DNA of 64,000 nucleotides from Hormiphora californensis. Its lineage: Eukaryota; Animalia; Ctenophora. Below the pieces are notes generated by a model, which saw only the letters and a program-made list of their open reading frames with translations, did not search any database and was not told the origin of the DNA. The stretch spans positions 3,472,001-3,536,000 of the forward strand of contig CM035352.1 in the NCBI GenBank assembly GCA_020137815.1, written 5' to 3'. Each line of letters starts with the position of its first letter. The first letter of the stretch is position 1. Of the stretch, positions 7,721 through 58,977 are shown piece by piece. Made by a program: the position numbers and the translations under genes.

Positions 7721-7995
7721 AATCCGGCGTGGAGGAAGACTACTTCCGAGTATGAAACTCGAGCAACTTTCATGATACAGAGAGATAGAAGTTACAGAGA
7801 TAGATGGTTGACAAGGATGATGTTGTGAAAAATGGACGATAAGTGAACCATCCTAGAATACCGGACATGTTTTTCTCTTTTCCTCACCGATGAGAGAGAG
7901 GAAAGATAGGATGTATTAGAGAGAGATAAAGGGATAAGCAATAAGCAATGAGAGTAAAGGAGAGAAAGATCAGTAAAATAGGCCAGGACGTTCTG

Positions 7996-9457
7996 CGGTA
8001 GTATGGTAGTTAAGGTCGTGCGCACTTTTTGGCGCCATTTGGCGCCAAATTGGCGCCACGTGGCGCCACGTGGCGATATTTTAGCGCCAAATGGCGCCAA
8101 AATTTGGCGACTGCGCACAACCGCCAATTTGGCGCCAAAATGGCGCCAAGTTGGCGATTTTTTGGCGCCAAATGGCGCCACGTGGCGCCAAGTGGCGCCA
8201 CGTGGCGATTGTAAATCGCCAAGTGTTGGCGGTATTTGGCGGTACCGCCACGTGGCGATGCGAATTTGTCTGAATAAACTGTGTCCATCGCCAAGTGGCG
8301 CCAAATTGGCGCCAATTTGGCGATAGTACCTAAAATTCCAAATATTCATAACGTCCATCAGAGGAATTCCTATCGCCAAGTGGCGCCAAATGGCGCCAAG
8401 TGGCGCCAATTTGGCGCTAAATTGGCGATTAGATACAAATCGCCAACTTAGCGCCAAATTGGCGCCAAATTGGCGCTGCTTGGCGATTGCCGCCAACTTA
8501 GCGCCAATTTGGCGCCAAATGGCGCTGCTTGGCGCCAATTTGGCGCCAAATTGGCGATTCGACACAAATCGCCAACTTAGCGCTGCTTGGCGATTGCCGC
8601 CAACTTAGCGCCAATTTGGCGCCAAAATGGCGATTGGCGCCAAATTAGCGCCAATTTGGCGCCAAATGGCGCTGCTTGGCGCCAATTTAGCGCCAAATTG
8701 GCGATTGGATAAAAATCGCCAAATTAGCGCCAATTTGGCGCCAAAATGGCGATTGGCGCCAAATTAGCGCCAATTTGGCGCCAAATGGCGCTGCTTGGCG
8801 CCAAATTGGCGATTGGATAAAAATCGCCAAATTAGCGCCAAAATGGCGATTGGCGCCAAATTGGCGCTAAATTGGCGCCAATCGCCATATTGGCGCCAAT
8901 TTGGCGCTAAGTTGGCGATTTGTATCCAATCGCCAATTTGGCGCTAAATTGGCGCTAAGCAGCGCCACTTGGCGCCAAATTGGCGCCTATCGCCAAGCAG
9001 CGCCAATTTGGCGCCAAGATTGCGCCAAAGAGGTGGTTAATTTCCGCTTCTGAATGTTCCCAGTCGCCAAGTGGCGCCAATTTGGCGCCAAATTGGCGCC
9101 AAGAGTGAAAAGTGCATGGCGCCAAATTGGCGCCAATTTGGCGCCACTTGGCGATGGACACAGTTTATTCAGACAAATTCGCATCGCCACGTGGCGGTAC
9201 CGCCAAATACCGCCAACACTTGGCGATTTACAATCGCCACGTGGCGCCACTTGGCGCCACGTGGCGCCATTTGGCGCCAAAAAATCGCCAACTTGGCGCC
9301 ATTTTGGCGCCAAATTGGCGGTTGTGCGCAGTCGCCAAATTTTGGCGCCATTTGGCGCCAAAATATCGCCACGTGGCGCCACGTGGCGCCAAAATGGCGC
9401 CAATTTGGCGCCAAATGGCGCCAAAAAGTGCGCACGACCTTAACTACCATACTACCG
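7996..9457. mobile_element. Non-autonomous foldback transposon with CGGTAGTATG termini, 6-bp TSD GTTCTG and TGGCGCCA-based ~11-bp minisatellite
   Basis: Reads gttctg|CGGTAGTATGGTAGTTAAGG...CCTTAACTACCATACTACCG|gttctg, with ~325-bp inverted arms. Confidence 0.93.
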
Positions 9458-9594
9458 GTTCTGCTGCTGTGCTGCTGATGATAAACATTTGCTGCAGCTG
9501 TGAACAACAGAAAACAACACCTTGACCTCTCAATTACACTCAAATTGTTCTCTCTCACACTTTCACCCTTTCTCTCTCTATCTATCTCACGCTA

Positions 9595-9668
<74 letters not shown>

Positions 9669-14618: not shown

Positions 14619-47801
<33,183 letters not shown>

Positions 47802-48192
47802 TGTTCTGGATGGACGGGGAGAGACAACAGAGCAAACAACAGGGTGAATCAAAATAACTTCCTCTGACACTCACACGGGCTCTCTCTATCTCTCTCTTTT
47901 CTCCCTATACATATCTCTCTATCCCTCTCTCTTTCTCTCTATCCATAGCTAACTCTTAGACTGATTGTTATGATAGGACATAACACATACTAGCACACAC
48001 ACACACACACACACACGTACAAAGATACACACATGCCAACACAAACACACGTCAGTAGAGGAAGGAATGTACAATCGTGTGAAATGTGCGGATGCTCTCT
48101 GTGAGAAAATACAGCAGAAAAAAAGCAACTCAAACTAAAATTCTAAACATCTCAAAAACATGTTTCATTGTCTTATCATCTCAAAAATTGTT

Positions 48193-49110
48193 TCATTCCA
48201 TCGTTGTGACGGGAACAGAATTAAGCTCATCTTCCCAGCCTAATTCTCGACAAATATCCGTCACTACCTCATCACAATACCCCTGCAGGTAGGCATCCTC
48301 CTGCCTACTGAAACTGACATCCGCAGACAGTGAGAGGAGAAATCCGGCTACCCCACCAACTTTTCCTGGTGGAGTTAGATTGATGTAGACCCGGGGCACA
48401 CCGCTCTTTGTCTCACCCACTAGAGTGTTAAAGGGGCTGACAGCCAGGGAGGTACCGAGAATGATTAGCAGATCACATGCCCGAAAATCATCACTAATAC
48501 TGTTGTGGAATCTCTGTGGAAGCTGTTCCCCAAACAGCACTACATCTGGCCTGACGACACCACCACAAGCATCACATTTTGGTACACCATCGTTTTTATC
48601 AGGGTTGAAAATCTCCTCCTTTAGCCACTCCAGTGGGTATTCTTTGCGACACTTTGTGCAATAACTTCTCTGGAAACTGCCGTGGGCCTCAATTACTTCC
48701 TCTTCAGACAAGCCCGCCAGGAACTCAAGAGCGTCAATGTTCTGTGTGTAGACACGTCTTAGAATACCCTTGTTTTTTAGTAGTGTAAAGAACTGGTGCG
48801 TTGTTGTGGGTGTCAGTTTTTGAGGATACATCTCACGAACTAGACCGTAGAATGGTCGTGGATCCTTCTTGAAATAACTGCCTTCGAAGACGGCCTCGGG
48901 GTAGGGCAGGTTGTATTTTCTTAGTTTGAAATAAAGGCCTGCGGATGGAGATCGAAAGTCAGGGATTCCTGCTGCGGTAGAAATGCCTGCACCACACATT
49001 ATCACGACATTTTTATAGCGTCCTTCCTTTATGCCTTTCACAAGGGACTCTTTTGAGAACTTTCCACCGGAATTTGTGCCACCGGTTTGTCTTGACTGAA
49101 ATCCACCCAT
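48193..49110 (-). CDS. Class I NAD-dependent deacylase (SIRT2/SIRT3-like sirtuin), single coding exon, 305 aa
   Basis: Motifs GAGISTAAGIPDFRSP, YTQNID, catalytic HG, Zn ribbon CTKC...CDAC, RPDVVLFGE and GTSLAVSPF. Confidence 0.96.
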   Translation of the reverse strand: MGGFQSRQTGGTNSGGKFSKESLVKGIKEGRYKNVVIMCGAGISTAAGIPDFRSPSAGLYFKLRKYNLPYPEAVFEGSYFKKDPRPFYGLVREMYPQKLTPTTTHQFFTLLKNKGILRRVYTQNIDALEFLAGLSEEEVIEAHGSFQRSYCTKCRKEYPLEWLKEEIFNPDKNDGVPKCDACGGVVRPDVVLFGEQLPQRFHNSISDDFRACDLLIILGTSLAVSPFNTLVGETKSGVPRVYINLTPPGKVGGVAGFLLSLSADVSFSRQEDAYLQGYCDEVVTDICRELGWEDELNSVPVTTME

Positions 49111-52100
49111 TCAAAACAGCTAAAAGTATTTGAATTTGTGATATGACCTCACATCAAAGTTAACTCTTTGGACGGGTGCCTTCGCGTGCACGGATTTGTT
49201 TTGGTCACCTATCATGTGGTGTCAACAAATCATACATATCACACGTACACGAACTTGGGGTGATAACTTCAAAAAGTCCGACTTTATACATAATGGCTCA
49301 AAAGAACAGTCGAATTATATCGCATTTGTAAAATTCAGAAACCTTAAAATCTGAATTCTGCGGTTACTTCCAGCTTCGCAATTTATGTTTGATAACAAGA
49401 ATTATTGCATTATGTATTCATAATGCGGTGTTTCCCTGCCACAAATGGATTTAAAATTGATGAATAAGCTTCAAAACTGGATTTCCTGATGAATTTTGTG
49501 CTCAAAGAGCATTTTTTGGCTGATGCGATGTTGGTTACTAAGGTAACTAGATAAGTTGCTATGGTAACCAAATCAGTTGCTATGGTAACCAGGACAGTTG
49601 CGATGGCAACCAAGGCAGTTACTTAGGAGACCCCAGTGGGTTACCAAGTGCCTCAACTTTAATCGCATCTCAACTCGAGTCACTAGTGTGACAGTAGTTT
49701 CATGCTTGGAAGACATTCTACCACTTCATAGCATGGCTGTAGGGGACGCAAAGTGATTTCAGGTGATAATGGGAAGTGCTATCAGCGAGTAATTGCGCGC
49801 CACAATGTGTGTTAATCATTTCCTTTGTTGAATCAACGAAGCGTGAGATGAAAGTTTTATGAAGGAGCAGACTTGTTGTTAGGCGTTGTCCGTGACGGAC
49901 GGACGGACACTTTTAGTTAACTACACAATCTGCTGATTTCTAAACCCTGAATGATCTTTTTAGCACGTGCGACGCACGTCGTGCGTGCTAAAAAGATCAT
50001 CCCGGGTGATTGCCTTCGGCAATCACCCGGGCAGGGAAAAAATTGGTCAAAGCGTCTTTGACCAAAGTTCCCAATACTGTTACAAATCTAATCACACATT
50101 CGTGAGTGTATCGTCAAAGGGTCATTCATCTGCATCATATGCCAAACACCAGGACAAACGGCACTGGCATCTTGAAAGTTGCAAAGGCAGGGCCGGGGTG
50201 GGAGCTCAAGTGTGTCAAGGGTTTGGGGCGGTGCCCCGCCCCTGCCAGGGGACGTGGGGTGGAAGCCCCTAAAGCGGGGAGCCCTAGCGGGATGCAGGGG
50301 CTGTAGGCTATGTAAATGTAAATTATGCACATAATATCCCACTCAATAGTGAATATATACCCAGAAAAATGGTGCCAACGCACTCTCTAAAGTATCACTT
50401 TCTCAAGTGGCTGTAGGGTTTGAGGGGATCAAAAGCCCTTTAGACCACTTCAGCATCTTCTGAGCGGTTTTTAGCATACACTGCAGTCTATTGGCCCCTC
50501 TACGCACGCATGAGGGCCGATGGGCACAGGTGCATTCCAAGCCCAAACTCTCAAGAGCGTGTTTGGTTTTTGTTTGTTTGAATTTAATTTTAGTGGAAGC
50601 TCTTACGGTAATTCCCACGCACCGTGGGAACATTTCCCACGCCGCGCCCTCTTTTCCCACGCTTTGCTTTCGACGCGCAAAAAATTATCGCGCGTGACGT
50701 CTACTAAAATGTTGAGGATGCAGTTGTTAACAACATTGGGCCAATTTGGGTAGTGCCGCGAGCATCGGAGCACTGCAGCAGCAGCACGTCACTGAGAATT
50801 TCGTTACAATCACACTGCACACACATGCCACATTGCATCAATGGATTGCATCATTGACGTTGGAACATCAATGAGGAACAGTTCGGTGGAAGGGAAACCA
50901 GTCCAAGAGTGCTGTCATGGCTGTAACCAGCCCCAGCGTCGTCTAATTACAACGATAAAGTATGAAAGTTTCACCCTCCGCCGAAACATTCCTAATTGAT
51001 ATATTGGGTACAAAATAAATATTCTTTGATTAGATGGATTTATAACAAATTGAACGCAAAGTTCTAAGAAGACAGATCACAAACAATTGTTAACTTTCTG
51101 GACACTACTTATCGATCACAATACATGTATGTAATATTCTCAAAGAGTTTTGTTCAAACCCTAGAACATGGTAAAAAGAGTTCGTGATATCCTAATCTAA
51201 CGATAATTATAGTCCTATAAATCTCAATTTACAGCAGCATCTTGTAGGGAATGCGGACAGTGACAGCTCCGTGTCTAACTTTAGTAGACGTGTCCGATGT
51301 CCGTACCGTAGTTAGTCGAATTCCGTTATATTATTATGGGAAACGGGTCTAACGGCTGATTCAAGGCATCGATTTTAGATACACATATCTTGTAGATGGG
51401 ATGATATTAATCGTCTAGAGAGGGTGTTGTAACCAGTACTCGGCATAATCCTGGGAGGGGGAGGGAAGGTTAGTTAAAAGAGCGTCCAGTACCATGCTCC
51501 TTTTATAATTTGGTTTATCGACTATTCAAAAAGACAACCGTCTAGCTGAGAAAGAGACACAAATCATCTCTTCTGAGAAGGGATGATTTCAGTCTTCTCC
51601 GCTTCCTTCCTTATCTTAATGTGTCACATGGGGTGGGCCTCTATCAGAAATGACAAGAATCGATAATTTTGTACCTCTCATCTGGCCGGGATCCGAAGTG
51701 GCGGGGCAACTAAAATGTGGTTTGAATGGGAGCCTCTCTCATTATCTCTAGTGCTCGGTCGTGGGTACAGTTAGTCAGGACCTGCAAGGAGAGCTGTTAT
51801 TACATATCTAGGTATGTATGATTGTGTAAAAATTCCCTCTTATTCCCTCTCCTGAATTCCCCTCGACAATGTTCTTATGTTACATTTGTTCGCGGCGTGG
51901 TGAAGCAGGGTGGAACAAGACAATCAGGTTCAGTACTCACCAGCTACACTGAGCAGTGTATCCTTAGGTATAATCTCAGTCGCCACTGCAGGACTACTCA
52001 ACACCCTGATACAGCCCTGGAGTGTGTCGCTACCTCCCTGAATCAGAATGCAGAATGGTGATGCCAAGAGCCTGCCGAACTATTGTCACCGTCACTATTT

Positions 52101-52174
52101 GTTCGTAGTGTAGAGTTTTACTGATCGTCAAACCTAGAGGATGAACAGGGTTTAGAGAGATCTGCACTCGGTAT

Positions 52175-52464
52175 GGGGAAACTCTAACTGAATGGCATCC
52201 CATTAATGGGATCCCATCAACAGTAAAACTCTAACTGATAATGGACCACAGTGATGGTTCTTTCTCTGTATTCTCTCTGTGTGCGCGCCCGCGCCCGGGC
52301 ATGCCCTATAGTTCTTTCTCTGTATTCTCTCTGTAGGCAGTACATAGATGTACTGCCTACAGAGAGAATACAGAGAAAGAACCATCACTGTGGTCCATTA
52401 TCAGTTAGAGTTTTACTGTTGATGGGATCCCATTAATGGGATGCCATTCAGTTAGAGTTTCCCC
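52175..52464. mobile_element. 290-bp palindromic MITE with GGGG..CCCC ends and 3-bp TSD TAT (Harbinger-like)
   Basis: tat|GGGGAAACTCTAACTG...CAGTTAGAGTTTCCCC|tat. Confidence 0.85.
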
Positions 52465-52569
52465 TATCAGGGGAGTGTGAGCAGGTTGTTATGTTCTGAG
52501 TTCTGACCCTCCTAAAAATTTGTAAACACACACAACAAGAATCCCATTCAAAAGAAAGACTATGAAATG

Positions 52570-52828
52570 CTCTCCATCTCTCCATCTCTCCATCTCTCCA
52601 TCTCTCCATCTCTCCATCTCTCCATCTCTCCATCTCTCCATCTCTCCATCTCTCCATCTCTCCATCTCTCCATCTCTCCATCTCTCCATCTCTCCATCTC
52701 TCCATCTCTCCATCTCTCCATCTCTCCATCTCTCCATCTCTCCATCTCTCCATCTCTCCATCTCTCCATCTCTCCATCTCTCCATCTCTCCATCTCTCCA
52801 TCTCTCCATCTCTCCATCTCTCCATCTC
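52570..52828. repeat. (CTCTCCAT)n 8-bp perfect tandem array, ~32 units
   Basis: Directly visible; source of the MERWRDGE pseudo-ORFs. Confidence 0.97.
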
Positions 52829-53647
52829 TAACAATTCTCCCTCCCTACTCACGGCGGAGTAACTTTTCAGCTACTATAGTGTAACTTAGCCTACAGTGCA
52901 ACAAGGTCGAACAAGGCAAGGCAGGGGGTGTGATTTGATCGAAAATGGAACTGGTAAGAGATTATAGCAAGTAGCAACGTGTGATCTGAAACTTACTCAT
53001 GAGTGGTAAGTGCACTGCTATCTCCATCCCCGATATTAAAGAGCATCTCCAGCTCTGCATCGGATGGGGGCACTGGACAAGATTGGCATTCATTACAGTT
53101 AGTCGGACCCTATTCTTGCATTGTCGTAGTAGGCTGCCTGTTCGAATGATATGCCACTAACGGGGACATCGTTTATTGCAGGGACAACGTCACCCGACCG
53201 GAGACGGCCATCTTGGTATATTAGACCTGGGGGAAGAGGTGAGGTCAGTCAAGACTAGATCTGGTGAAGAGAGGATCAGGACCTGGTGATGGATATGTAA
53301 TCAATAAACCTGGGTTTATATGTAGCGGGTCACCCGCTAGGGTGATTCGCTGCACCATATACTGCCCGACCTGCGAAGCAGGGAGGGTGGTAAATGGTAT
53401 AAAACCCTACCAAAGGGAGGGGTTTATACTTTATACACCCAGGCCAAAAAGACGGAAGAAGAAAAAATGGAAAAACCAAAAAGAATGGTGCTCCAACCAC
53501 AATTTACAATTACTACAGAGTACAGAAGGGCAATTCTTTATCTTGTGTTACCTGTTTGGAGGTGAGCATCAGCAGCTGCAGCCTGCAGCCCCATCTGAAT
53601 GTCTTTCTTTTTATATTATGTGGGGAAACGACGAATCAAAGGAGCTT

Positions 53648-54622
53648 TACGGTGGCAGATTCCGGCCAAGAGTTTTTTCAATCAAGTGAAATATTTTTGT
53701 TTGAAGTTTTATAAAAATTTTATTTCAAAATAAAAATAAACATGTCGATAAAATTATTGGCCGGAATCTGCCACGCGAGTGGCAGATTCCGGCCAAGATT
53801 CTCAAAAAACCTTGGCCAGAATCTGCCACACACGTGGCAGATTCTGGCCAACCAACTAAAACTTGTTTATATCAAAGCGAAAACCACTGTATCCGACTAA
53901 TTTTGATACGCTGAATCACGTAAGATACTTTTCCAATCCCTCAGAGGTCGGGAAAGTGTAATAACTGACCATAATTGGGTCTAATTGACCCCACTTACAA
54001 CTTCTCACCTTAAAACGATAGACGCTTATGTAAAGGCACTTTTCCGACTAATTTTGATACGCTGAATCACGTAAACAACTTTTCCAAGTCCTCAGAGATC
54101 GGCAAAGTGCCCTAATTGAGCAATTAAGGCTAATTAGACCCAATTATACCCAATTAAGGCATTTTCCCGACCTCGGAGGACTTGGAAAAGTTGCTTACGT
54201 GATTCAGCGTATCAAAATTAGTCGGAAAAGTGCCTTCACATAAGCGTCTATCTTTTTAAGGTGAAAAGTTGTAAGTGGGGTCAATTAGACCCAATTATGG
54301 TCAGTTATGACACTTTCCCGACCTCTGAGGGATTGGAAAAGTATCTTACGTGATTCAGCGTATCAAAATTAGTCGGATACAGTGATTTTCGCTTTGATAT
54401 AAACAAGTTTTAGTTGGTTGGCCAGAATCTGCCACGTGTGTGGCAGATTCTGGCCAAGGTTTTTTGAGAATCTTGGCCGGAATCTGCCACTCGCGTGGCA
54501 GATTCCGGCCAATAATTTTAACGACATGTTTATTTTTATTTTGAAATAAAATTTTCATAAAACTTCAAACAAAAATATTTCACTTGATTGAAAAAAACTC
54601 TTGGCCGGAATCTGCCACCGTA
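53648..54622. mobile_element. 975-bp palindromic MITE with TAC..GTA ends and 6-bp TSD GAGCTT (IS3EU-like)
   Basis: gagctt|TACGGTGGCAGATTCC...GGAATCTGCCACCGTA|gagctt, with ~450-bp arms. Confidence 0.85.
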
Positions 54623-57264
54623 GAGCTTTGTCTAAAGAGTAAAAACTAAAAACTGAATCGAAGAAACGAAAAATTTGAGAAATCCACGCGCAGCCCAGCT
54701 GTTTTGTCAGCACTGTATATGCTTTCGGCGTGGGAAAAATGCGCGCAGCGTGAGAATTTCCCACGCTCGTGGGAATTACCGTAAGAGCTTCCACTATTTG
54801 GGAAATCTGCTTTTTTAATCAAGATTAGAAAAGCGTCGCGGTTTATGTTCCGCGCGAAAATATGGTGAAAGCGTTGCCAAGCATCTACTCTCTAAGCCGC
54901 GCATTAACAATTTTGTCGCGATCGTGTTCATAAAATTTTTTGTCCCACCAGAAAAATTTTCGTAGGGTAAAAAATCCAAAATGACCCCTTTCTCCCTTTT
55001 CTCTCAAAAGAAAGTATGCCCTGGACACACAGCACACTGGACATCTTCGCCAATAACCACTGTACAAAGGTTGCACCAAGTGGAGTAGGGCAAAAATGCT
55101 TGCAGCCCCTCGACACAACGCCGGGAGAGCGCGGGGGTTTCATAATTCATCCATCCACACCCCCGGTTTAAGAAGGCCCATCGCCATCCCTGATCCATGA
55201 TCGGTGTGGATTGCCATGGACCACACCAGGGTCGGTGTTGACTGTCGCGTCCGCCCATGTGGGTCCCACCGGGGGGAGTGTAGGTGGCAGAGTCCCTGCG
55301 AGCAGGGGCCAGGGGCTGCAAGCCCCGGTGGGGTCGAGGGTGTCATCACACCAGGACTTCAGAGCAGGGGCCAAGATGATTCGTGGAAGGGACGAAATAT
55401 TGGGCTGAAAGAAATCATTCTACATAAAAATTTGATCCTAGATTTTATTTTGATATTGATAGACGTAGACGTAGACGATTTTTTGCACTTTTATTGTTGA
55501 ATAAATGGGTAAAACTAGAAACAGAAACAAAAAATAATTACACTAACAAGTACTTTAACAGTTGCATCCCGATTTTCATTTTTCTCGGCATATTTCCACC
55601 CGAGCATCCTCGTAAATCGGGGTCAGATTTAAATACAAAATTTTAAATACAACATATAATTCGACTGCTAACAGTCTCTAAAACCTAAAACATTTTTGAT
55701 TCCGGGCACAGGACGTCGTTACTCGTTTCACGTCTTAATAATCAATCTGTTTCCGGAACTCTATGTAGCACTTCAGTGATCGACAACATCGATGGTCAAC
55801 ACGTCCTTTAATCGTTCCATTTATAACTTTATTGCACTTGATGTTCTCCCTAATACACTCTGAAAATTATATGTTAGTTACATATACATAGTCATAGTGT
55901 GTTTTTACGAATTTTATGTTCGCTAAAAACTGTTTAATTTTGTGTGTCCACCCTAGTAAGGTCTAGTAGTAGTGGGGTCTGTTAGTTGCAAAACTCTTCT
56001 GTTCTTGTAACATTTTATGAAACGCGATGTAACAGATCTGTTAACAGTTCTGCAAGTTCTTGCAAGTGAAAACACAGTTGCTAACAGAGCTGGGCGTCAT
56101 AAAAGGTTGTAGAGCTCACTGAGAACATCTAGCTGTTTTTGAAACGGATATCATATGTTTACTAGGGCAGTAGTTCTTTCACTTACTTCCTATTTTTAAG
56201 GTGGCATCATGGTTAAGTAGGTCATCATAGTTAAATATTGAACACCTCAGCATCTCACCAGTATATCCATGATAATTTTTTAACGTATGAAATTTCCGGA
56301 AGACGGTCTGCAGGCACTCCGAGTTAAGCCTGAAGGATGGAGTTACAATTAATTATTTAGTATAAGTATGTATAACCTATAATGAGTAAGAACTATGCAT
56401 ATGAAACTAACAATGAAATTGTCCAACTCTTACATTAGTGATCATATACTATAAAATTTGGAGAATCTTAGTGATAACTAGGGTTGGGGTTAGGGTTAGT
56501 TTTCTGATCCCTTGTCAGCGTGTTACTTACAGATGATGTTGGAAGATTACTCCCTCTTGAGTATAGCACTGCGACGTTTGAGCCGACACGGGGATAATAA
56601 CCACTATCAGGAGGGGAAACAAAATCCAAACCATCATTATTATAACTGACAAAATAATGGAGATCTTGGGATATTAAGAACGAAAATACGTCCGCTTTTG
56701 GGGCGGTGGCAAGAAGGATTTTTTTTTCAAATGATAAGAATGGGCTAAACCGTGATTTGAGTTGCACAACTGGGCAGATATGGAACGTCGCGTGGGTACT
56801 GGATAGGAATGCACGTGTTAGGTAGTGGTAACAACGAATCCAACGATTGTATCATATTATGATATAAACCTGGTGAATCAGGTCTACTTGAGAGTGACGT
56901 CTTGTAAATTGTAATTCCGGTTTAAAAATAATGACTCTGGATCATTTGTCATACAATAATAGCTATTTCTGTCTGAGATCAGCTTACCTCTCGAGGGTGC
57001 AGTCTGTAAACAGTCTGTGTTAATATCATCTTTCAAATGACGTGTTAGTAGCAATTTGTACACAAATTCTAGGGACCTACGTTTATTAAATTAGGCAAAA
57101 GGTAGTCGCACCTAGAAACACCTAATAGCCCTGTGTTCGGTGTTACCCCTAGTAACACCTAGAAACACCTAATAGCCATGTGTTCGGTGTTACCCCTAGT
57201 AACCCCTAGCAACACCCTTGGTAACCCATAGTATCGGCCCTAGAAACACTGATACCCACCTAGA

Positions 57265-57898
57265 ATGTCACGTCCAGAACACATCGGACCCCCGGAGTTG
57301 TTTTACAATGAAACAGAGGCTGCAAAATACACCAACAATACCCGGATCATTGATATTCAAATGTCAATGAGCTCCCGGGCCATTGAGCTGTTAAATCTCC
57401 CCGAGGATCAGCCCTCTTTTATCCTTGATGTCGGGTATGTATTTTGCTGTGCGGAGATTACCGATCTGCTTCATGTCTGGAGCTAGCTTAGATCTACAAC
57501 ATGTCTTAGTTTGGCCAACATGATACCCTTCAGATGTTAGGAACAAGATTTCTGAATTCTGATATATCTTCTCGTATCATCAGATCTCATTCACGTGATA
57601 CTCCTAGGTGTGGTTCAGGTCTGAGTGGTGAGGCTATCACGGAGGAGGGACACTACTGGATCGGCATGGACATCTCGCCCAGCATGCTTGATATTGCTGT
57701 GGAGCGGGAGGTAGAGGGAGATGTGGTTCTGGCTGATATCGGGGAGGGTGTTCCATTTCGGGCTGGATCCTTCGATGGTGTCGTCAGGTATAATTAGGGG
57801 AATTATGGGGGAGTATAACTGTTATGTAATGGAACCCCTGTGGTACATTACACGTGTACAGCTGTACACACGTGCTCTCTCACTCGTTCTTTCTCTCC

Positions 57899-57953
<55 letters not shown>

Positions 57954-58977
57954 TCTCCTCCCTTTCTCCCCTAAAAAGTTAACCCCCCTTTCTGCAGTAT
58001 ATCTGTACTCCAGTGGCTGTGCAACGCAGATAAGGCCTCTCACAATCCCTTCAAACGACTTCGTAGTTTCTTCACTATGCTATACTCATCGATGGTACGT
58101 GTTACACGTAACGTGTATAAAGCTTAGTAGAACACTGTTATCCCAGTTTTAAAAGATCTAGTTCATTTTAGTTCATATCCATTTTTGTTAGAGACAGGGA
58201 GGGAGAGCAGTTTTCCAGCTTTACCCAGAATCTCCAAAGCAGATGGAACTCATAACAGGTATAATACTCGGGGTAGAGATGACAGGGGGGTCTTCCTGAT
58301 TTTACCCCTCCTATCTTCTCCTTGAACTGCCATCCTCTCACAAGACCTTTTTTATTCCCAAATATGACCACTTTGCAGAGCAAGCGACCAGGTGCGGGTT
58401 TACTGGTGGAGTGGTAGTGGACTACCCAAACAGCACCAAAGCGAAGAAGATCTTTCTCTGTTTGTTCGCTGGGGTACCTGTAACGGGCGTGAAGATGCCC
58501 CAAGCGCTGGGGGCTGAGGGCGAGGATACTGTCCAGTTTAGTAACGAGAGGTGGGTCACTAGGTGTTACTAGGTGTTACTAGGGGTTACTAGATGTTACT
58601 AGGGGTTACTAGGTGTTACTAGGTGTTACTAGGTGTTACTAGGTGTTACTAGGTGTTACTATAGGGGTTACTAGGTGTTACTAGGTGTTACTAGGTGTTA
58701 CTAGGTGTTACTAGGTGTTACTAGGGGATACTAGGTGTTACTAGGGGTTACTAGGGGTTACTAGGTTGTTTCTCCTTTGAAATTTATATTTTAAAAATGT
58801 CGAAATATTCCTCCAATCAATTTATATTTTCCCAGGCAATCTGGTAAGAAGAGGAAGCGAGGGGAGGTTTCTAAAAAGGAATGGATCCACAACAAAAAAC
58901 AAAGAAGAAGAGTTCAGGGAAAGGAAGTTACCGCGGATTCAAAATACACCGGCAGAAAGAGGAAACCAAAGTTTTAA
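57265..58977 (+). CDS. BUD23: 18S rRNA m7G methyltransferase BUD23/WBSCR22, 6 coding exons
   Basis: Exons 57265-57434, 57608-57787, 57998-58094, 58192-58258, 58379-58550, 58836-58977. Peptide MSRPEH..PPELFYN...LDVGCGSGLSG...QWLCNAD...[18 protein letters not shown]...[12 protein letters not shown]. Confidence 0.96.
58556..58765. repeat. 10-bp minisatellite (ctaggKgtta)n in BUD23 intron 5; degenerate reverse-complement array at ~57108-57263
   Basis: Directly visible. Confidence 0.9.

What the first reader, a model, noticed from the sequence alone, without database searches (positions are those of the whole stretch)
50591..54796. Academ-like TIRs enclose decayed exons and introns of a multi-PDZ gene (Pack-element-style capture)
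Seen: between 29-bp perfect TIRs lie minus-strand exon remnants with splice sites, encoding parts of two PDZ domains (DGRLRSGD..AIND; LGITI...PKDTLLSVAG...THDRALEIMR) with stops and frameshifts. Three younger elements are inserted in between. The ORF track does not show this. Known: DNA-level gene capture is typical of Pack-MULEs, CACTA and Helitrons; TAG ends with 3-4 bp TSDs are typical of Academ. Inference: host gene transduplication by an Academ-type element, which I do not know to be documented.
Basis: partly seen in the sequence, partly recalled or inferred. Interest (0 to 1): 0.72.

Follow-up and report, generated by a model that had tools for sequence, protein, structure and literature searches.

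The report
Comb-jelly transposon spreading dead PDZ exons
A 4.2-kb jumping-DNA element, likely from a comb jelly, holds broken exons and an intron of a host scaffold-protein (multi-PDZ) gene between its two inverted ends and, judged by sequencing depth, likely sits at ten or more places in the genome; such gene capture is known in plants and some animals, but the carrier here is likely of the Academ type, for which our searches found no reported case.

Summary
Observation confirmed. Perfect 29-bp TIRs (TAG..CTA, flanked TTT/TTT) enclose three decayed exon remnants colinear with residues 906-1158 of a ctenophore five-PDZ protein; one intron matches relatives. In one individual's contigs, depth steps from 63-85 in the flank to 880-940 inside, and an insert-free cargo/right-end junction exists at depth 523: likely 10-15 near-identical copies that already share the lesions. 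Two nested MITEs are real (one IS3EU-type, TSD proven); the third insert is only an 8-bp tandem array. A related organism holds a ~93% identical decayed version, so the capture or the decay is old and the spread recent. Open: 'Academ' rests on end motif plus one 3-bp TSD (chance 2-3%; right flank uncovered in contigs; no transposase found); the intact parent in this genome was not seen. Verdict: a multicopy Pack-TIR, a known animal class (Tan 2021), new in lineage, probable carrier and intron-bearing cargo. The scan had no look-alike of this element but noted Pack-TIRs in other genomes.

The parts
50588..50590 (.). left copy of candidate 3-bp target site duplication (TTT)
   Evidence: chance 2-3%; no empty allele seen
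50591..50662 (+). left TIR: 29 bp perfect (50591-50619), imperfect to about 50662, with TTCCCACG repeats (likely transposase-binding sites, inferred)
   Evidence: 7 of the 8 copies of the motif in the window lie in the two ends
50663..50948 (.). left subterminal region, unassigned; multi-copy with the element (X3 contig 50621-50886 depth 880); not covered in organism B
50949..51674 (-). internal DNA 3' of the PDZ exons, unassigned (acceptor-like site at 51451, AT-rich 50949-51225); shared with organism B in patches
   Evidence: no significant protein match
51675..51781 (-). decayed exon C: second half of PDZ4 (P0006 aa ~1122-1158), in-frame stop at 51710-51712, frame broken at its start
   Evidence: 62% id, E 6e-9; spliced ortholog RNA contig in X22
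51782..51940 (-). 159-bp GT..AG intron inside PDZ4, same position as in relatives
   Evidence: ortholog fragments end/start at P0007 aa 860; X22 loose end
51941..52161 (-). decayed exon B: linker and first half of PDZ4 (P0006 aa ~1060-1118), with a short duplication, lost codons and frameshifts
52175..52464 (.). nested palindromic MITE, GGGG..CCCC ends, TAT on both sides (PIF/Harbinger-like, inferred)
52570..52829 (.). tandem array, 32.5 copies of an 8-bp unit; not shown to be an element
52853..52890 (-). possible 38-nt micro-exon (AG..GTGAGT), no significant protein match
52997..53226 (-). decayed exon A: second half of PDZ3 and linker (P0006 aa 906-982), two frameshifts
   Evidence: 81% id over 32 aa
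53227..53647 (-). internal DNA 5' of exon A, splice-like signals, unassigned; 53642-53647 is the left 6-bp TSD of the nested insert
   Evidence: no significant match
53648..54622 (.). nested 975-bp palindromic MITE, TACGG..CCGTA ends, 6-bp TSD GAGCTT (IS3EU-type); absent from many other copies
   Evidence: PMC12730594 passage
54665..54796 (-). right end of the carrier (about 130 bp) incl. right TIR 54768-54796; other family members share it and diverge inward of about 54665
54797..54799 (.). right copy of candidate TSD (TTT)

Best explanation
This is a non-coding TIR transposon, likely of the Academ type, that carries a decayed, intron-containing piece of the host's five-PDZ scaffold gene and has likely been re-copied recently to about 10-15 places by a transposase supplied from elsewhere. 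Shown: paired TIRs, colinear broken exons with one ancestral intron, no PDZ homology outside, a depth step at the TIR, an insert-free cargo/right-end junction in other copies, later MITE insertion. Inferred: the piece was copied in at DNA level during repair or template switching (gap-filling or FoSTeST as proposed for Pack-TIRs); it decayed first (the collapsed copies share its stop and frameshift, and a related organism has a decayed version about 7% away) and was amplified afterwards, so it rides as a passenger; the TTCCCACG repeats bind the transposase; the carrier is Academ (about 55%).
For: TIR and TSD geometry. Cargo = P0006 aa 906-1158, all 5 colinear HSPs inside the TIRs; outside only low-complexity hits; shuffled controls for the flanks not significant (4-22 of 100 shuffles as high). 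X3 contig depths: flank 63.2, 85.3, 77.6 (last ends at 50590) versus 879.9, 900.1, 939 inside and 1031-1158 at the right end, with 0-1 differing letters per contig. Contigs in X3 (depth 523) and X4 (671) join window 53631-53641 straight to 54623 with a single GAGCTT. Loose ends show other right flanks and other interiors inward of about 54665. Intron at PDZ4 shared with lobate fragments and spliced out in X22 RNA (read by hand). AcademX makes 3-4 bp TSDs (PMC10045372 passage). No transposase domain inside.
Against: The right flank 54806-54960 has no contig cover in X3 or X4, so neither this junction nor an empty allele was seen (the tool warns that its filter leaves holes). No pair of flanks with its own TSD was obtained for any other copy. 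In X4 the inside/flank ratio is only about 1-3 (1177 and 671 versus 375-669). The intact parent in this genome was not found (no genome held; negative). The cargo lacks two introns inferred in lobate relatives (P0007 aa ~655 and 819). Contig depth is an estimate, not a count.
Confidence: 0.75

Rival explanations
1. Same mobile Pack element, but the carrier is not Academ (for example a TAG-ended hAT whose TSD is lost here, or an unclassified family).
For: TSD rests on one TTT triplet (chance 1.7-3%) at a junction not seen in contigs; TAG/CAG starts are common in hAT (recalled); hAT made 208 of 370 Pack-TIRs (PMC8277862 section 7); an earlier scan note on a similar 'Academ-like' capture doubted the carrier (e1-9830562, not tested).
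Against: 8-bp TSD 3/8, 9-bp 2/9, 10-bp 3/10, only 3 bp fits; the copy is within 0-1 letter per contig of its siblings, so a fresh TSD is expected.
Confidence: 0.3
2. The element captured DNA that was already a dead duplicate (a resident pseudogene older than the split from organism B), not the live gene; capture itself would then be recent.
For: Organism B's contig over 51817-52165 has 25 substitutions and is 19 letters shorter with no insertions, so it shares the lost PDZ codons (my accounting); B has no cover at 50696-50907; B's cover and an X4 contig (1549 nt, 283 nt unaligned beyond) both start near 50950.
Against: B also has TIR-matching cover in the 50590-50695 bin (mean 62, what about 70 matched bases at depth ~90 would give, the depth of its cargo contigs); a hole in contigs proves nothing; linkage in B was not seen either way.
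Confidence: 0.3
3. Multi-copy state comes from segmental or tandem duplication, not transposition.
Against: The left flank stays at single-copy depth up to the base before the TIR; several different flanks follow the TIR.
Confidence: 0.07
4. The cargo was copied from a partly spliced RNA and later enclosed by the TIRs.
For: Two introns inferred in lobate relatives are absent from the cargo; LINE reverse transcriptases occur in the window.
Against: At least one ancestral intron and several other GT..AG gaps are kept; intron loss in this lineage would explain the rest (the neighbouring sirtuin has no intron); no poly(A) tract seen.
Confidence: 0.08
5. Two solo ends landed by chance in a resident pseudogene.
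For: None beyond the unverified right flank.
Against: No PDZ homology outside; depth step at the TIR and multi-copy cargo/right-end junction.
Confidence: 0.03

Closest known systems
Multicopy animal Pack-TIRs: Pack-hAT-N8_XT and Ssk-FB4 (Tan et al. 2021, PMC8277862; read: abstract, sections 7, 9, 10, passages, term searches in 12 supplement files)
   Same: Non-coding TIR element carrying host gene DNA, with introns in the case of Ssk-FB4, spread by transposition.
   Different: There only 4 multicopy cases were found in the reference genomes, with 3-4 copies in the described examples and median cargo 224 bp; carriers hAT, TcMariner, Harbinger, Kolobok, piggyBac, MULE; 'Academ' has 0 hits in the supplements and no ctenophore is mentioned. 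Here about 1 kb of PDZ-matching DNA in about 2.2 kb of interior, likely 10-15 copies, cargo dead before the spread; Ssk-FB4 is expressed and intact.
Academ superfamily, AcademX lineage (Kojima 2020, not held; seen only through a passage of PMC10045372)
   Same: 3-bp candidate TSD; TAG..CTA ends (recalled rule); short TIRs.
   Different: No transposase or nuclease gene; interior is host DNA. PMC10799480 (passages) says it is unknown whether AcademH captures genes.
Plant Pack-MULE / Pack-CACTA (seen in search listings, and as described in PMC8277862)
   Same: DNA-level capture with introns, multicopy spread, mostly decaying cargo.
   Different: Different superfamily, TSD and kingdom.
Ctenophore five-PDZ scaffold: Mnemiopsis leidyi ACHWQZ_G009808 (P0006) and Bolinopsis microptera LOC134816172 (P0007, P0008)
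   Same: Colinear over PDZ3 second half, linker and PDZ4; one shared intron position.
   Different: Those are intact (5 PDZ stretches); the cargo is broken, keeps 88 of 125 residues invariant between the two species in five frame-correct pieces, and lacks PDZ1, 2 and 5.

Membership tests
Pack-TIR (Tan 2021) | paired TIRs enclosing non-TE sequence | tested here: met
Pack-TIR (Tan 2021) | interior duplicated from a host gene | tested here: met
   colinear with intact orthologs; intron shared
Pack-TIR (Tan 2021) | parental copy elsewhere in the same genome, not linked to TIRs | tested here: inconclusive
   no genome held; candidate low-depth contigs in X3 and X4 could not be read whole
Pack-TIR (Tan 2021), multicopy class | several copies with distinct TSDs | tested here: inconclusive
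   depth ratio 10-15 in X3, 1-3 in X4, and other flanks seen; no paired flanks
Academ | TAG..CTA termini (rule recalled, not read) | tested here: met
   sequence
Academ (AcademX) | 3-4 bp TSD (PMC10045372) | tested here: inconclusive
   TTT/TTT, chance 2-3%, no empty allele
Academ | terminal 11 bp align with a known member (Repbase rule, PMC4455052 passage) | not testable with these tools
   no Academ consensus library; 12 of 33 supplement files of PMC10294476 searched, 0 hits
Academ | autonomous partner with an Academ DDE transposase | not testable with these tools
   no genome; TIR absent from metagenome and viral contigs
hAT | 8-bp TSD | tested here: not met
   3 of 8
AcademH / MULE | 9-10 bp TSD | tested here: not met
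   2 of 9, 3 of 10
IS3EU (nested insert 53648-54622) | TAYGG..CCRTA ends and 6-bp TSD (PMC12730594) | tested here: met
   empty form with one GAGCTT in X3 and X4
PIF/Harbinger (nested insert 52175-52464) | 3-bp TSD, G-rich ends | tested here: inconclusive
   TAT/TAT and GGGG..CCCC; no empty form laid

The most novel reading that the evidence does not exclude
A Pack-Academ family in comb jellies: an Academ-type element that captured an intron-containing piece of a host gene before two species split, kept it as dead freight, burst again recently, and whose relatives carry other captured interiors behind the same 130-bp end, extending plant-style gene shuffling to a new superfamily and to the earliest-branching animal lineage.
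Probability: 0.35. Interest if true: 0.62.

Novelty: new variant of a known kind. Interest (0 to 1): 0.46.

Why it matters
Multicopy Pack-TIRs were rare in the one animal-wide survey read here (4 cases) and none involved Academ or ctenophores. A young, active, multi-copy element with kilobase intron-bearing cargo would show that a further superfamily shuffles exons, and the mix of an old decayed copy in a relative with a recent burst offers a test of how capture, decay and spread are ordered. The cargo itself is broken and likely has no protein function, and the scan has met many analogous Pack-TIRs in other animals, which limits the surprise.

Tried and rejected
Whole genome not held. TIR scan of metagenome and viral contigs: 0 hits. 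P0006 in metagenome contigs: 38 pattern hits, 0 confirmed. Exon B read-through found nothing real: 0 of 178 candidates, 3 spurious repeat proteins, 0 PDB hits; exon C alone 0 PDB hits. Putative extra exons up- and downstream of the PDZ part, the micro-exon and both flanks: no score above shuffles (best 4 of 100); my by-eye matches of 53227-53647 to the ortholog's preceding residues were dropped. Pfam on 18 short interior frames, Atlas on the 134-aa plus-strand frame, Rfam on 49000-56000: nothing. Two loose-end flanks are not in the window, so they do not show a further insertion next to the TIR. That the listed other flanks begin with TTT is likely a selection effect of alignment length and was not used as target preference. 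The uncovered right flank and the flank contig ending exactly at 50590 (a possible heterozygous empty site) were not used as evidence. One piece (B1) was in the wrong frame and was dropped (3 of 128 positions). Papers on Academ ends were not held; PMC5718144, PMC4746887, PMC5751038, PMC9783078, PMC3627910, PMC8969392 (term passages or supplement searches only) gave no terminal sequence.
Full report
Observation. The TIRs are real: 50591-50619 and 54768-54796 are 29/29 complementary, continue imperfectly to about 70 bp, begin TAG and end CTA, and carry 7 of the window's 8 TTCCCACG motifs. The chance expectation is about 1e-8. Both flanks read TTT; among lengths 3-12 only 3 matches fully, with a chance of 1.7-3%. 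The element is 4206 bp.

Cargo. Exon A (52997-53226, minus) gives PDZ hits in Pfam (E 0.004, below the curated cut-off) and PDB, and finds ctenophore proteins at 81% identity: Mnemiopsis ACHWQZ_G009808 (P0006) and Bolinopsis LOC134816172 isoforms (P0007, P0008). These have five PDZ stretches. tBLASTn of them against the window gives five colinear HSPs, P0006 aa 906-1158, all inside the TIRs; outside there are only low-complexity hits. Targeted alignments of the missing N- and C-terminal parts to the flanks are not above shuffles. The cargo keeps 88 of 125 residues invariant between the two lobate species (one mis-framed piece dropped) and has stops and at least four frameshifts. The 159-bp intron 51782-51940 sits where single-exon ORF fragments of relatives break (P0007 aa 860), and an RNA contig in run X22 joins the end of exon B directly to exon C (loose end read by hand); X22 shares next to none of the stretch's words and is likely a more distant relative. 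Two further introns inferred in lobates (aa ~655, 819) are absent from the cargo. About 1.2 kb of interior is unassigned. The genome is taken to be a ctenophore from these homologs; earlier scan notes say the same.

Nested inserts. 53648-54622 is a 975-bp palindrome with TACGG..CCGTA ends and GAGCTT on both sides, which fits IS3EU (TAYGG..CCRTA, 6-bp TSD; PMC12730594 passage). 52175-52464 is a 290-bp palindrome with TAT on both sides. The third item is a 32.5 x 8-bp array, not shown to be an element.

Mobility. No genome was held, so contigs of public runs were laid (4 of 22 runs on the left stretch, 2 of 22 on the right). In X3, flank contigs have depth 63.2, 85.3 and 77.6, the last ending at 50590; inside, contigs have 879.9 (50621-50886), 900.1 (51002-51516) and 939 (51487-51796) with 1, 1 and 0 differing letters, and the right end tiles at 1031-1158 up to 54796. 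That is a ratio of about 10-15. The 939-depth contig spans the stop and the broken start of exon C, so the copies share these lesions. In both X3 (depth 523) and X4 (671) a contig joins window 53631-53641 to 54623 through a single GAGCTT: other copies lack the IS3EU insert, and cargo and right end are joined in them. Other contigs share the right 130 bp but differ inward of about 54665, and several unrelated flanks follow the TIR. Against: in X4 the ratio is only about 1-3; the right flank 54806-54960 has no cover in either run, which the tool says may be a filter hole; no empty allele and no second TSD pair were seen; depth is an estimate.

Age. Organism B differs from the window by 13 of 172 letters at the sirtuin end and has contigs at depth 87-90 over 51202-51432 (17 substitutions) and 51817-52165 (25 substitutions, 19 letters shorter, no insertions). 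With no insertions it cannot hold the PDZ codons that the cargo lacks, so it is likely a decayed copy too. Decay therefore likely began before the split, and the near-identical copies in X3 spread much later. Whether B's copy lies between TIRs is open: B has cover in the TIR bin but none at 50696-50907. Hence the rival that a dead duplicate was captured.

Mechanism. Best reading: a non-autonomous TIR element took in host DNA by repair synthesis or template switching, as proposed for Pack-TIRs (PMC8277862 section 9); the piece decayed, gathered MITEs, and was moved in trans. Capture route, transposase identity and lack of function are inferred.

Comparison. Tan et al. found 370 animal Pack-TIRs, 87% hAT or TcMariner, four multicopy, median cargo 224 bp; 'Academ' has 0 hits in 12 supplement files that include the element list, 'ctenophor' 0 in the text, and 'academ' 1 passage not shown; Academ is not among the classes in their Data 2 header, so its absence may reflect the screen. 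Searches for Academ gene capture listed no report; PMC10799480 calls capture by AcademH unknown. The library lacks most subscription papers, Repbase Reports and Kojima 2020, so absence from print is not established. The 3-4 bp TSD of AcademX is from a passage of PMC10045372; the TAG-end rule is recalled. hAT (8 bp) and AcademH/MULE (9-10 bp) TSD tests were not met. The scan holds no look-alike of this element but several Pack-TIR notes from other genomes, unchecked here.

Verdict. A real, likely multicopy Pack-TIR in a ctenophore; new variant of a known kind; Academ carrier about 55%; interest 0.46.

Noticed in passing
window 50949-52097, run X4: One 1549-nt contig at depth 135 has 193 substitutions, and X4 lists 45 T>C places against 8 in X3 while other classes are equal; it shares 2 of B's listed T>C differences and none of the other listed ones. 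This would fit an A-to-G hypermutated (sense strand) copy of the element or its donor; the rows were not shown, so it is untested.
   Followed up: partly
window 50590 and 54806-54960: X3's left-flank contig ends exactly at the base before the TIR (possible heterozygous empty site), while the right flank has no cover in X3 or X4.
   Followed up: partly
window 54665-54716: At least 7 X3 contigs at depth about 30 share the right end but carry different inner sequence: other family members, perhaps with other cargo or the autonomous partner.
   Followed up: no
window 48193-49110 (-): Intronless 305-aa sirtuin (Pfam SIR2, E 5e-59) 1.5 kb from the element's left TIR, on the same strand as the cargo.
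   Followed up: no
window 49307-49335 and 55639-55667: Inverted pair starting CAGTCGAATTATAT that brackets the whole element (6.3 kb); no TSD seen; possibly an older host element.
   Followed up: partly
window 16394-17650 (+), 18170-20560 (-): Two LINE reverse-transcriptase frames, the second with an endonuclease domain.
   Followed up: no
window 7792-9600: Large palindromic region rich in TGGCGCCA repeats.
   Followed up: no
window 57260-58580: Intron-containing gene remnants on the plus strand whose translation looks like a BUD23/WBSCR22 rRNA methyltransferase (recalled motif match), interrupted by short tandem repeats.
   Followed up: no
window 44543-45703 and 46455-47870 (-): Two long proline-rich frames with similar starts, no Pfam family.
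   Followed up: no
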